The notes under the pieces: generated by a model
Told to the model about the DNA's origin: nothing
The model's input: only the letters and a program-made list of their open reading frames with translations
Database searches by the model: none
Made by a program: the position numbers and the translations under genes
Assembly: GCF_009914755.1 (NCBI RefSeq)
Contig: NC_060945.1
Strand: one strand, 5' to 3'
DNA length: 64,000 bases
DNA from: the human T2T-CHM13v2.0 reference genome, Homo sapiens
In this document: piece after piece, positions 12,319 to 15,715 of the stretch
Position numbering within the stretch: position 1 is the first letter of the stretch
How the letters are laid out: every line of letters begins with the position of its first letter

Positions 12319-13236
12319 CAGGCAGGGGGTGTGGGCAGGGGATCCAAGCATATCAAAAGTTTGTAACATGTTCATCTAGGCTACTGTTTTCAGTGTCATA
12401 AAAAATTGCAAAATAATACAGATACATAGATAAATTAGTAGGTATTGTAATTTTTTTCTTTTTTTTTCTTTGCAACTATTCTTTTCTCAGAAGGCTTTTT
12501 ATACATAGCTATTATTAATACTTCAGATGTTAATAAATAACTTATTGTGTCTGCTCAGATTTCTTAAATGTATTATTATTACCTAATATTTAATATTTAT
12601 GTATCACTTAACATTTAATTATTGATAATATATTATTAAATATGAATGTTTAATATTTAATTTATTATTATTTAAAAGTTAACTTATTATATTATATATA
12701 TCTCTCTCTCATTTAATGTTGGTAATACATTTCTAAAAACAGACATTCTGCTTGAGAATGTAAATAGAGAGGCTATTTTCCATTATTTTAAGAGGGAAAT
12801 AATTACAATTTACTTACAACGCTTGTCAATTTCTCAAAATGTAACAAATATACAGAAAAAATGTTTTAATATAAGTAACAAATAGTCTTGCCAAGGTGTA
12901 AAATGCCTAAAGCACCACTTCTGCTTTCTGATCACCAAAAATTAACGTAGTTGTTACCTACCAGATAAAGCAACGCAGCAATATATGCTCAAAACCAGTA
13001 GCACTTTCAATGTACCACTTCTTTGCTGACTTTTAGGGAGCTTTTCAAACCATTTACATGTGATTCTGATATTCCTCCAGTTGTATTGGAAGTAAAACCT
13101 ATAGACTTTTCCCCTTGGGGACTTTTACGTTCTGAGATATTAATATCATTTTTCCTACATGGTCATTAACTGAAACTCTAATTAAGAGTTAGATGTATAC
13201 CATTCAGTTTGTATCTTAAAAACTGAGGGGCATTCT

Positions 13237-13410
13237 GGCCGGGCGCAGTGGCTCACGCCTGTAATCCTAGCACTTTGGGAGGCCGAGGCTGGCGGATTGC
13301 CTGAGCTCAGGAGTTCGAGACCTGCCTGGGCAACCTGGTGAAACCCCGTCTCTACTAAAATACAAAAAAAAAAAAAAAAAAATTAGCCGGGTGTAGCGGT
13401 GTGTGCTTGT
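13237..13410 (+). mobile_element. AluS, 5' part of a split element
   Basis: Left monomer plus start of right monomer ending ...gtgtgcttgt; left TSD aaaactgaggggcattc at 13219-13235. Confidence 0.95.
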
Positions 13411-13768
13411 GGGTATCATCCAATCCTTTGAGGGCAAGCATAGAACAAAAAGGCCAAGAAAGTGCAAATTTGCTCGTTTGAGCTGGGACATCCATGCTCT
13501 CCTGTGCTTAGACATCAGTGCTCCTGCTTCTCAGGCCCTCAGACTGAGCTAGGGACTTTTACAGCATTTGATCCCCTGCTTCTCAGGCCCTTGGGTTTGA
13601 ACTGAAATTACACTGCTGGCTTTTCTGGGCCTCTACCTCTAGAGAACACATGTTGAAACTTCTCAGGTTCCATAATTGCCTGAGCAAATCCCTCAAAAAA
13701 GTCACTTCCTATATGTCTTTCTATGTGTCTTATTAGTTTGTTTTTTTGGGGGAAACATGACTAAAACA
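13411..13768 (+). mobile_element. 5'-truncated MLT2 (ERVL) LTR within the captured segment
   Basis: gggtatcatccaatcctttgagggc...agaacaaaaagg...gactaaaaca. Confidence 0.8.
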
Positions 13769-14494
13769 CCTACTTTGATATTTTCCACTGGAAACTAAGT
13801 TAATAAAAAAGCTTTGGGGCATTTTGTTTGCATCCAATTCTCATTCTATTTCTCTGCTCACCTTCCATCATCCTTTCTATGTTTCAATCTTTGATGCCAA
13901 GAAATACATCTTCCTCTTTGTGTTATCCGTGAAAGTAAAACATTCTCTAAATTTTGATTTTTGAAGCAGCAGAAAATAAAAACAGATGAGGTAGATACGT
14001 TCAGACTCCATTCATCTTGGAAGAACCTATGTCTTCTGAAAAGAAGCTGTTTTTTGGTTATTTTTAATTAAATTTTTAAATTTATTAACAAAGTGCCCTA
14101 GGCTCTATGTTGAAAGAGCAAGGCTTCATATGAGGATATGACTCTCTATACAATTCCACTGTTTTTAAACTTGTTCAATACCTGTAAATCAAGTGTAAGT
14201 TGCACACACAGGATGCCTTATGTTGGCATGAGCTTGCCATTGGTAGGTCTGCATTTTCACCATCCTCTTTGTTCATTCTCGCTTTCTACAGCAGAGGTGA
14301 TTCTACATAGAACAATGTGTGTGTATGTGTGGGGCAAGTTGTGAAGGGAGGTTGGGGAACATAACAGAATCATGAGTCTTTCCATTGCTGAACAACCAGC
14401 ATATCAGTGAAAGAGGAGTGGCCTAGAGTTTGAAAAAATTCAGAATAGAAAAGGGGTGACTGAAAGGAAAGGGATATTTAGTATCAAGGAAGAG

Positions 14495-14570
14495 TCCTAA
14501 AACAGGCATTAGGACATCTGAGTTCAAGTCCAACTTCAATATTTATTAGCTGTGTGATTGTTAAAAGATA
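14495..14570 (+). mobile_element. MIR fragment within the captured segment
   Basis: gacatctgagttcaagtccaacttc...attagctgtgtga. Confidence 0.55.
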
Positions 14571-14640
14571 ACTAAATTAGTTAATATTTGTGTTTAAAAA
14601 CCCAAATAATAATTATTAAAGAAAATAAAAAATTACCATA

Positions 14641-14803
14641 AGTCCCAGCTACTCGGGAGGCTGAGGCAGGAGAATTGCTTGAACCCAGGAGGCGGAGGTT
14701 GCAGTGAGGCAGGATGGTGCCACTGCACTCCAGCCTGGCGGCAGACGGAAACTCCGTCTCAAAAACAAAAACAAACAAACAAAAATGTAAAACAAAACAA
14801 AAC
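14641..14803 (+). mobile_element. AluS, 3' part of the split element
   Basis: Begins agtcccagctactcggg, tail of AAAC-type repeats, right TSD aaaactgagggacattc at 14804-14820. Confidence 0.95.
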
Positions 14804-15715
14804 AAAACTGAGGGACATTCGTACAGATAAATACTTCTCCATGAAAATATAACTATATGAAACGTTATTTATTTTTCTATTTTATTGCCTCTATCTTTCT
14901 ACTCCTAAAGTACACCCACAGATACAATTTTAGTCACTCACAGATGTCCGCAATTGACTCTTTTCCTGTTATTCTCTGTAATTCTCAGGTAGGTTTTCTA
15001 CACAAGGTATCAAAAATGGTCCATAGCTTTCTTAGGTTTGCATGATTTATGCCATTCACAAGATCATAAGAACAGAGTGCTTCTCTCTTCCCGAATGCAC
15101 ATCCAATCCTGAAAAAGAACTCTGACTCCACTTGAGCCATCCATGCATCTCTGGATGAATTAACATGTGAAAGGTCACAGGGTACACGAATTGGACAACT
15201 TGGACATGAGAATCTATTCCTGTACAGATGGGGAGTCAGGAGATGACAAGGAGGATTTCTAGAAAAGAAAAATTCTGGATAGACACAAATGAAAATAACA
15301 GATTTTCATCAAATTCCATGTTCAGGGCAGTTTATCCATGCCGATTACCCTGAAAGATATATTGGGAAGTCAGCACTGAATTCTCATCTTTCTTTCCTCC
15401 TTCCCAGATCAATACAAAAAAGAATTACATTCATCTAAATGTCTTTCTCAGATGGCTTGAATCATTGGAATGTTATATGTCATAGGAGATTACAGTTCCT
15501 ACAATAAAGCAGTGCATTGACAGGGAAAAATTAAATATATATGCAAGCTTTCCCAAGATTTCTAGTTATATTCATGTAAATTTGGGTCATCTCAATTCAG
15601 GGTGAGTGATTTTGTCATGCTTTCACCACAGTAAGAAATTCAGTAGTAGATTTTCTTTAATACCTTTGCCATTATGTCTTCGAGCACATGGGAAGAGGTT
15701 TTAAGACATGCGTTA

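What the first reader, a model, noticed from the sequence alone, without database searches (positions are those of the whole stretch)
13219..14820. An Alu split seamlessly by a 1,230-bp captured piece of older genomic DNA
Seen: the Alu halves 13237-13410 (...gtgtgcttgt) and 14641-14803 (agtcccagctac...) rejoin into the consensus cctgt|agtccc with no bases lost or duplicated. One 17-bp TSD (aaaactgaggggcattc / aaaactgagggacattc) brackets both halves, so they are one insertion. The intervening 13411-14640 has no TSD, polyA or terminal repeats. It starts abruptly inside an MLT2 LTR and continues through unique DNA and a MIR fragment. Established: MLT2 and MIR were inactive long before AluS, so they could not have transposed into it. 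Inference: a templated insertion, i.e. a distant locus copied or moved into a double-strand break within the Alu.
Basis: partly seen in the sequence, partly recalled or inferred. Interest (0 to 1): 0.8.

Follow-up and report, generated by a model that had tools for sequence, protein, structure and literature searches.

The report
Old Alu split by copied DNA
An old Alu repeat on human chromosome 21 was later cut in two by a 1.23-kb copy of DNA that still sits 1.2 million bases upstream, a clean but ordinary example of a chromosome break patched with copied sequence.

Summary
One S-type Alu lies at 13237-13410 plus 14641-14803. It is bracketed by a 16/17 target-site duplication and is split exactly between two adjacent Alu positions by 1,230 bp.

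The predicted donor exists at chr21:22,064,255-22,065,485. That is 1,199,156 bp upstream on the same strand. It differs by 6 substitutions and one 1-bp indel. In the donor the ERVL-type LTR continues about 170 bp 5' of the junction, so the donor is the ancestral locus and the window holds the copy. The non-LTR part has exactly two copies in the genome, and the recipient flanks are single-copy.

Junction microhomology is 2 bp on the left and 1 bp on the right. The insert has no target-site duplication, poly(A) tail or terminal repeats. The insert differs from its donor by 0.49%, whereas the Alu is about 9.5% from other Alus, so the event is recent, probably on the human lineage.

Best mechanism: break repair by copying a nearby-in-cis DNA template. 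A cDNA patch is the main rival, because the segment ends 11 nt after an AATAAA. This is a known kind of event (class 2 templated sequence insertion, or dispersed duplication). Interest is modest.

The parts
13219..13235 (+). 5' copy of the Alu target-site duplication (17 nt)
   Evidence: matches 14804-14820 at 16 of 17 positions. One extra t at 13236 lies between it and the Alu start.
13237..13410 (+). Alu left arm, A-rich linker and the first bases of the right arm, ending ...gcttgt
   Evidence: aligns to 8 other window Alus, 17/149 mismatches to their majority; sub-threshold match to Metazoa_SRP (63.7 bits, gathering score 70), as expected for a 7SL-derived element.
13364..13382 (+). A19 homopolymer in the Alu middle linker, 28 bp 5' of the break
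   Evidence: In the alignment the window's Alu has an 11-column insertion at this place relative to all 8 other window Alus.
13411..14640 (+). 1,230-bp inserted copy of chr21:22,064,255-22,065,485
   Evidence: 6 substitutions and one 1-bp deletion against the donor; the non-LTR part has exactly 2 copies in the genome.
13411..13776 (+).
   Evidence: 38 other genomic matches within query 1-366; in the donor the same LTR begins about 170 bp further 5'.
14624..14629 (+). AATAAA hexamer ending 11 nt before the 3' end of the copied segment
   Evidence: 4.0% of + strand positions in the 20-kb donor region have such a hexamer 10-30 nt upstream. No poly(A) follows.
14641..14803 (+). Rest of the Alu right arm (to about 14761) and its degenerate A-rich tail (14762-14803)
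   Evidence: 8/114 mismatches to the majority of 8 window Alus; the tail is an (AAAAC)n-like array.
14804..14820 (+). 3' copy of the Alu target-site duplication

Best explanation
An S-type Alu inserted here by ordinary L1-driven retrotransposition. It made a 17-bp target-site duplication that begins with A's.

Tens of millions of years later, and probably after the human-chimpanzee split, the DNA broke, or a replication fork collapsed, between the t at 13410 and the a at 14641. The left 3' end (...cttGT) paired through 2 bases of microhomology with DNA 1.2 Mb upstream on the same chromosome (donor ...ctaGT). It was extended for about 1,231 nt along that template, then released. It was joined to the other break end through 1 base of microhomology (a). 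No target bases were lost.

The donor stayed intact, so the outcome is a small dispersed duplication.

**Shown:** one Alu; a seamless split; the donor, its direction and its intactness; the microhomologies; the relative ages.

**Inferred:** that the template was DNA reached by proximity in cis (an SDSA- or MMBIR-like template switch) rather than an RNA or a free fragment. The general claim, a templated insertion into a pre-existing Alu, I hold at about 0.95. The figure below is for the DNA-template-in-cis version.
For: - **One Alu, one TSD.**. TSD chance is about 1e-6 or less.
- **Donor.** It lies at C21:22064255-22065485 on the same strand and covers the full 1,230 bp at 99.4%.
- **Direction of copying.** The LTR runs through the junction in the donor in 8 of 8 comparisons, in 6 of 8 as one HSP.
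- **No larger duplication.** Only this piece is shared at 92% or more between the 20 kb around the donor and the 64-kb window, apart from one 44-bp Alu match (2 of 65 HSPs). The recipient flanks are single-copy.
- **Ages.** Alu divergence is 25/263 against insert-donor 6/1230 (Fisher p=1.4e-14).
- **Microhomology.** 2 bp and 1 bp.
- **Proximity.** A randomly placed donor would fall within 1.2 Mb on either side with p=7.7e-4. The review of Onozawa & Aplan reports that experimentally captured, RNA-linked inserts mapped to 18 of 24 chromosomes without preference (PMC5110952, text read). Template switching is described as using templates nearby in three-dimensional space at kilobase-to-megabase scales (PMC7954356, abstract start in search listing).
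- **No poly(A).** There is none at the insert's 3' end.
- **Possible fork-stalling site.** An A19 tract lies 28 bp from the break. That poly(dA:dT) tracts favour fork collapse is recalled, not checked.
Against: - The microhomologies are short. Together they are expected by chance at p=0.016, and they are equally compatible with classical end joining of any fragment.
- There is no other sign of replicative repair: one template, no inversion, no further switch.
- The segment's 3' end lies 11 nt after an AATAAA (p about 0.04), and its 5' end lies inside a sense-oriented LTR. That is the outline of a transcript.
- Physical proximity of the two loci was not measured.
- Outgroup genomes were not available, so the order and date of events rest on divergence alone. 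Gene conversion between the copies could make the event look younger than it is.
Confidence: 0.55

Rival explanations
1. cDNA patch (class 2 templated sequence insertion, or endonuclease-independent L1 ORF2 reverse transcription). An unspliced transcript of about 1.23 kb starts inside the sense-oriented LTR at the donor and is cleaved after the AATAAA. It was reverse-transcribed and used to fill a break in the Alu by end joining.
For: - The segment starts 170 bp inside a + oriented LTR.
- It ends 11 nt after an AATAAA. Only 4.0% of + strand positions in the 20-kb donor region have that property.
- The lack of a TSD, together with microhomology, matches the class 2 description. Experimental inserts of this class were enriched for transcribed sequence and were reduced more than three-fold by reverse-transcriptase inhibitors (PMC5110952, text read).
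- 4 of 6 substitutions are transversions, as an error-prone polymerase might give, but p=0.10.
Against: - There is no poly(A) at all at the 3' junction, although a cleaved transcript should carry a tail.
- The donor lies 1.2 Mb away in cis (p=7.7e-4 for a randomly placed donor), which free RNA does not predict.
- The AATAAA sits in a very A+T-rich stretch.
- No evidence of transcription at the donor was available.
- At 1,230 bp the insert is longer than the experimental inserts (73-414 bp, median 191; PMC5110952, figure legend).
Confidence: 0.25
2. Capture of a free linear DNA fragment. The fragment was released from, or over-replicated at, the donor region, and was ligated into a blunt break by classical non-homologous end joining, as happens with mitochondrial DNA (numts).
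For: - Microhomology of 0-2 bp and no filler fit classical NHEJ.
- Insertions without loss of target bases are common for numts: 54% of integration events had no deletion (PMC2567098, abstract read).
- The donor is intact, so the fragment would have to be an extra copy.
Against: It needs a separate process to make an extra 1.23-kb linear copy while the donor stays intact. The in-cis proximity is explained only if fragments rarely travel. The insert is collinear with the donor, so it is not a re-opened circle with a permuted junction.
Confidence: 0.15
3. The insert arose at the moment of Alu retrotransposition. The L1 reverse transcriptase switched from Alu RNA to another RNA and back.
For: One TSD brackets everything. 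The switch points would be seamless by construction.
Against: The Alu is 7-11% from other Alus and its TSD already differs at 1 of 17 positions. The insert differs from its donor by only 0.49% (Fisher p=1.4e-14). The two events are far apart in time.
Confidence: 0.02
4. Assembly artefact, or two unrelated Alu fragments that happen to abut a resident 1.23-kb segment.
For: None specific. Only one assembly was available.
Against: - The copy differs from the donor at 7 places, so it is not a mis-joined read set of the donor.
- The two Alu parts meet at adjacent consensus columns and share one TSD.
- The LTR is cut at the junction here but continuous at the donor.
Confidence: 0.02

Closest known systems
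Class 2 templated sequence insertion (polymorphism), TSI/TSIP, of Onozawa and Aplan
   Same: [quoted passage not shown] There is no TSD and no poly(A) tract. The junctions look like end joining, with microhomology. Non-annotated intergenic or intronic sequence is among the reported templates (PMC5110952).
   Different: - Here the donor is on the same chromosome, only 1.2 Mb away.
- The insert is 1.23 kb, whereas experimental inserts were 73-414 bp.
- No microdeletion or untemplated bases.
- An AATAAA lies 11 nt from the 3' end, a feature the review assigns to class 1.
- Polymorphism and RNA origin were not testable here.
Replicative template switching (FoSTeS/MMBIR) templated insertions; 'dispersed duplication' of structural-variant catalogues
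   Same: It is a copy-and-paste of a segment from a template in cis at megabase scale, with microhomology at both switch points and the donor retained (abstracts in the listings).
   Different: There is a single template, with no inversion and no further complexity. The return to the original strand is exact to the base. The microhomology is minimal.
Numt insertion at natural chromosome breaks (Hazkani-Covo and Covo 2008)
   Same: Filler DNA seals a break by end joining, often without any loss of target bases (54% of events; PMC2567098 abstract).
   Different: The filler here is nuclear DNA from the same chromosome, not mitochondrial DNA.
L1 ORF2-mediated insertion of non-L1 RNA (class 1 TSIP, processed-pseudogene-like)
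   Same: There is a poly(A) signal 10-30 nt from the 3' end of the inserted segment.
   Different: There is no TSD of 5 bp or more around the insert, no poly(A) tract, and the target ttgt|agtc is not the TTTT/A site (criteria from PMC5110952).

Membership tests
Class 2 templated sequence insertion (Onozawa & Aplan) | [quoted passage not shown] | tested here: met
   the donor is at C21:22064255-22065485, full length, 99.4% identical, and still present.
Class 2 templated sequence insertion (Onozawa & Aplan) | No target-site duplication and no poly(A) tract at the insert | tested here: met
   the flanks ...gcttgt and agtccc... share no duplication. The insert ends ...attaccata with no A run.
Class 2 templated sequence insertion (Onozawa & Aplan) | No cryptic polyadenylation signal near the 3' end | tested here: not met
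   an AATAAA ends 11 nt before the segment's end. The background rate is 4.0% of positions, so it may be chance.
Class 2 templated sequence insertion (Onozawa & Aplan) | End-joining marks at junctions (microhomology, microdeletion or untemplated bases) | tested here: met
   2-bp and 1-bp microhomology. No deletion and no filler.
Class 2 templated sequence insertion (Onozawa & Aplan) | Template is reverse-transcribed RNA | not testable with these tools
   No expression data or gene table for the donor region was available.
Class 2 templated sequence insertion (Onozawa & Aplan) | Polymorphic among people (the 'P' of TSIP) | not testable with these tools
   Only one human assembly is held.
Class 1 TSIP / L1 ORF2 target-primed insertion | TSD of at least 5 bp, poly(A) tract and a TTTT/A target site | tested here: not met
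   none of the three is present at the insert junctions. The Alu itself does have a TSD and an A-rich tail.
FoSTeS/MMBIR templated insertion | Microhomology at each template switch | tested here: met
   2 bp (4 of 5 with one mismatch) and 1 bp. This is weak: joint chance 0.016.
FoSTeS/MMBIR templated insertion | Template physically near the break (in cis, kb to Mb) | tested here: met
   1,199,156 bp upstream on the same chromosome and strand. Three-dimensional contact was not measured.
FoSTeS/MMBIR templated insertion | Excess point mutations made during error-prone synthesis | tested here: inconclusive
   6 substitutions (4 transversions, p=0.10) and 1 indel. They cannot be polarised without an outgroup.
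Mobile element (DNA transposon, LTR element, Helitron) | Terminal repeats, a TSD of its own, and many copies | tested here: not met
   no terminal direct or inverted repeats; only 2 copies of the non-LTR part in the genome.
Alu (SINE) insertion, for the host element | Dimeric 7SL-derived body, A-rich tail and a flanking TSD | tested here: met
   The assignment of both halves to the S subfamily rests on recalled diagnostic positions, not on a call.

The most novel reading that the evidence does not exclude
The copied segment is a transcription unit. It starts inside a sense-oriented ERVL-type LTR and ends 11 nt after an AATAAA. On this reading, an LTR-driven, unspliced RNA made in the germline or early embryo was reverse-transcribed and used, close to its own site of synthesis, to patch a break in an Alu on the human lineage. 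That would be a natural, datable case of RNA-templated break repair acting in cis over 1.2 Mb. The 7 differences would partly record the copying errors.
Probability: 0.15. Interest if true: 0.6.

Novelty: new member of a known kind. Interest (0 to 1): 0.3.

Why it matters
The event can be read to the base. The Alu consensus gives the pre-break sequence, the TSD proves that a single host element was hit, and the donor survives. This makes it a clean natural specimen of how a germline break was repaired, with no loss of target bases and minimal microhomology.

If outgroups confirm that it is specific to the human lineage, it adds one small dispersed duplication inside an intron of LINC01692. Polarising its 7 differences could then show whether the copying was error-prone. 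No function is indicated: no RNA family matches the insert, and no annotated element overlaps it (hub table).

Tried and rejected
- **BLAST arithmetic for seamlessness.** 12 other window Alus were paired with the two halves. The expanded A19 linker stopped the left-half alignments at about position 133, so the arithmetic was uninformative. The MAFFT alignments replaced it.
- **MIR fragment.** A genome search with the last 333 bp plus the donor flank found only the two copies. A sensitive blastn against the window found one 42-bp, 74% match. The MIR label is therefore unverified. The genome search skips very common words, and no repeat library is held.
- **A repeat crossing the donor's 3' junction.** None was detected, so the direction of copying rests on the 5' LTR alone.
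- **Break at a known Alu recombination hotspot.** The break lies a few bases 5' of the right-arm CCAGC. Han et al. found that the CCAGC at Alu positions 166-170 has only average breakpoint frequency, and that the hotspot is in the left arm at positions 24-45 (PMC2041999, passages read). The idea was rejected as an explanation.
- **Homology-driven invasion through an Alu at the donor.** The nearest Alu-like piece at the donor (L002 576-683, 85%) lies about 820 bp 5' of the copied segment and not at its edge. Rejected.
- **Re-integrated circular DNA.** The insert is collinear with the donor, with no permuted junction. Rejected.
- **Primary TSI papers.** PMC4419790 and PMC4040595 are not held. 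Only the 2016 review was read.
- **LINC01692 in print.** 3 papers hold the name and 2 were listed. From their titles and abstract starts, neither bears on this locus.
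Full report
**Observation**

- An Alu begins at 13237 and runs through an A-rich linker to ...gcttgt at 13410.
- 1,230 bp of non-Alu sequence follow.
- At 14641 the Alu resumes with agtcccagctac. It runs to a degenerate A-rich tail that ends at 14803.
- A 17-nt direct repeat, 13219-13235 and 14804-14820, matches at 16 of 17 positions and abuts the Alu 5' end and the tail. 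Its chance probability is about 3e-9 at fixed places and 1.3e-6 with slack.

I aligned the two parts separately to 8 other Alus of the window. The last left-part base and the first right-part base fall in adjacent columns, 191|192. No Alu base is missing or doubled. An earlier attempt to show this by BLAST arithmetic on 12 window Alus failed, because the linker of this Alu is expanded to A19. The insert has no flanking duplication, poly(A) or terminal repeats.

**The donor**

A search of the window's own assembly with 13411-14640 returned 40 scored matches out of 617 candidates.
- One match is the query itself.
- One full-length match lies at C21:22064255-22065485, + strand, 99% identical.
- The other 38 matches are confined to query positions 1-366 at 69-81% identity. 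These are other copies of a dispersed LTR.

A base-by-base comparison of the two full-length copies gives 6 substitutions and one 1-bp deletion in the window copy. The donor lies 1,199,156 bp upstream on the same strand.

Homology ends at the junctions apart from microhomology.
- Left junction: the Alu ends ...cttGT and the donor's 5' flank ends ...ctaGT.
- Right junction: the base after the donor segment and the first base of the right Alu part are both a.

Several checks show that this is a lone copy.
- The non-LTR part (13790-14640) has exactly two copies in the genome.
- The recipient flanks are single-copy.
- Between the 20 kb around the donor and the whole window, only this segment and a 44-bp Alu piece reach 92% identity (2 of 65 HSPs).

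It is not part of a larger segmental duplication.

**Direction and order of events**

In the donor the LTR homology to other genomic copies starts at about L002 1331-1347 and runs through the junction at 1500|1501.
- It does so as one HSP in 6 of 8 copies compared.
- It does so as two HSPs, one on each side, in the other 2.

So the donor holds the ancestral, continuous arrangement, and the window holds a copy truncated 170 bp inside the LTR.

The Alu parts differ from the majority of 8 window Alus at 17/149 and 8/114 positions (11.4% and 7.0%, not different from each other, p=0.29). The range for those 8 Alus measured the same way is 7.3-13.5%. The insert differs from its donor at 6/1230 (p=1.4e-14 against the Alu). 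The Alu is therefore old and the insertion young.

The 0.49% divergence (Poisson 95% interval 0.18-1.06%) is 0.15-0.88 of a human-chimpanzee divergence of about 1.2% (the 1.2% figure is recalled). The event probably happened on the human lineage. This is an inference with three caveats: there is no outgroup, gene conversion is possible, and some differences may have been made during the copying.

**Mechanism**

Shown:
- A pre-existing Alu was opened between two adjacent bases.
- 1,230-1,233 bp were copied from a surviving donor in cis.
- The junctions carry 2 and 1 bases of microhomology.
- Nothing was lost and nothing untemplated was added.

This excludes several alternatives.
- L1 target-primed insertion: there is no TSD, no poly(A), and the target is not TTTT/A (criteria from PMC5110952).
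- A mobile element: there are no terminal repeats and only two copies.
- A reverse-transcriptase template jump during Alu insertion: the ages differ about twenty-fold.
- An assembly chimera: the copies differ at 7 places.

What remains is break repair with a copied filler.

I favour a DNA template reached in cis, by an SDSA- or MMBIR-like template switch.
- A randomly placed donor would lie this close with p=7.7e-4.
- RNA-linked experimental inserts showed no chromosomal preference (PMC5110952).
- Template switching is described as using templates nearby in three-dimensional space (PMC7954356, listing abstract).
- The A19 tract 28 bp from the break could have stalled a fork. This rests on recalled knowledge.

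The main rival is a cDNA patch.
- For it: the segment begins in a sense-oriented LTR and ends 11 nt after an AATAAA, a property of 4.0% of positions in the donor region.
- Against it: no poly(A) follows, and the A+T-rich context makes the hexamer cheap.

A captured free DNA fragment is the third option.

Seamlessness is not special in itself: 54% of numt insertions at natural breaks show no deletion (PMC2567098, abstract).

The break lies next to the right-arm CCAGC motif, but that site has only average breakpoint frequency in Alu recombination (PMC2041999, passages).

**Comparison with what is known**

The event fits class 2 templated sequence insertions in most defining features (PMC5110952, parts 1-3 read). 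The exception is the nearby AATAAA. RNA origin and polymorphism could not be tested. It equally fits the 'dispersed duplication' or templated-insertion outcome of replicative template switching.

It is a new, very clean instance of a known kind, not a new kind. I did not find it in print, but that rests on very little:
- The search for LINC01692 found 3 papers holding the name and listed 2. I saw only their titles and abstract starts, and neither bears on this locus.
- Structural-variant catalogues, segmental-duplication tables and supplements were not searched.
- The two primary TSI papers are not held.

**Limits**

No repeat library was available, and the MIR fragment could not be verified.
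- No other primate or human genome could be searched.
- No RNA family matches the insert at E of 0.1 or less.

**Verdict**

- The general claim, a templated insertion into an old Alu, is about 0.95.
- DNA template in cis: 0.55. cDNA patch: 0.25. Free fragment: 0.15.
- Interest: 0.3.

Noticed in passing
window 13364-13382: The Alu's middle linker is a pure A19 run. In the alignment this Alu has an 11-column insertion here relative to all 8 other window Alus. It lies 28 bp 5' of the break and may be a fork-stalling site (idea from recall).
   Followed up: partly
window 13808-13824 (same in donor L002 1899-1915): A 13/17 match to the Alu's TSD lies inside the inserted segment. The chance is about 0.015 over the insert under uniform base composition, and higher in A+T-rich DNA. 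It is not collinear with either junction, so it is probably chance.
   Followed up: partly
window 13836, 13858, 14140, 14270, 14507, 14586 and the 1-bp deletion at 13752: 4 of the 6 substitutions between insert and donor are transversions (p=0.10 against a 2:1 transition bias). None falls in the first 340 bp, which is the LTR part. This could hint at error-prone copying. It cannot be polarised here.
   Followed up: partly
L002 576-683 (chr21:22,063,330-22,063,437): An Alu left-arm-only match (85% to window 13261-13367) lies about 820 bp 5' of the donor segment. No right-arm match was found in L002. It is not at the edge of the copy.
   Followed up: no
window 13236: A single extra t lies between the 5' TSD copy and the first base of the Alu. 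It could be an untemplated base, or an 18th TSD position that has since mutated (the 3' side has g at 14821).
   Followed up: no
window 13523-13539 and 13575-13591: A perfect 17-nt direct repeat, 52 bp apart, lies inside the LTR part of the insert. It is probably an internal repeat of the LTR family.
   Followed up: no
window 13236-13287 (+) and 14682-14743 (-): Sub-threshold Rfam matches to mir-1268 (26.2 bits, gathering score 83) and mir-3135 (28.6 bits, gathering score 80) lie inside the Alu parts. My guess, not checked, is that these are Alu-derived miRNA families and not genes at this site.
   Followed up: no
L002 1385-1400 (donor LTR): An A13 run interrupts the 5' part of the donor's LTR, in the stretch that was not copied.
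   Followed up: no
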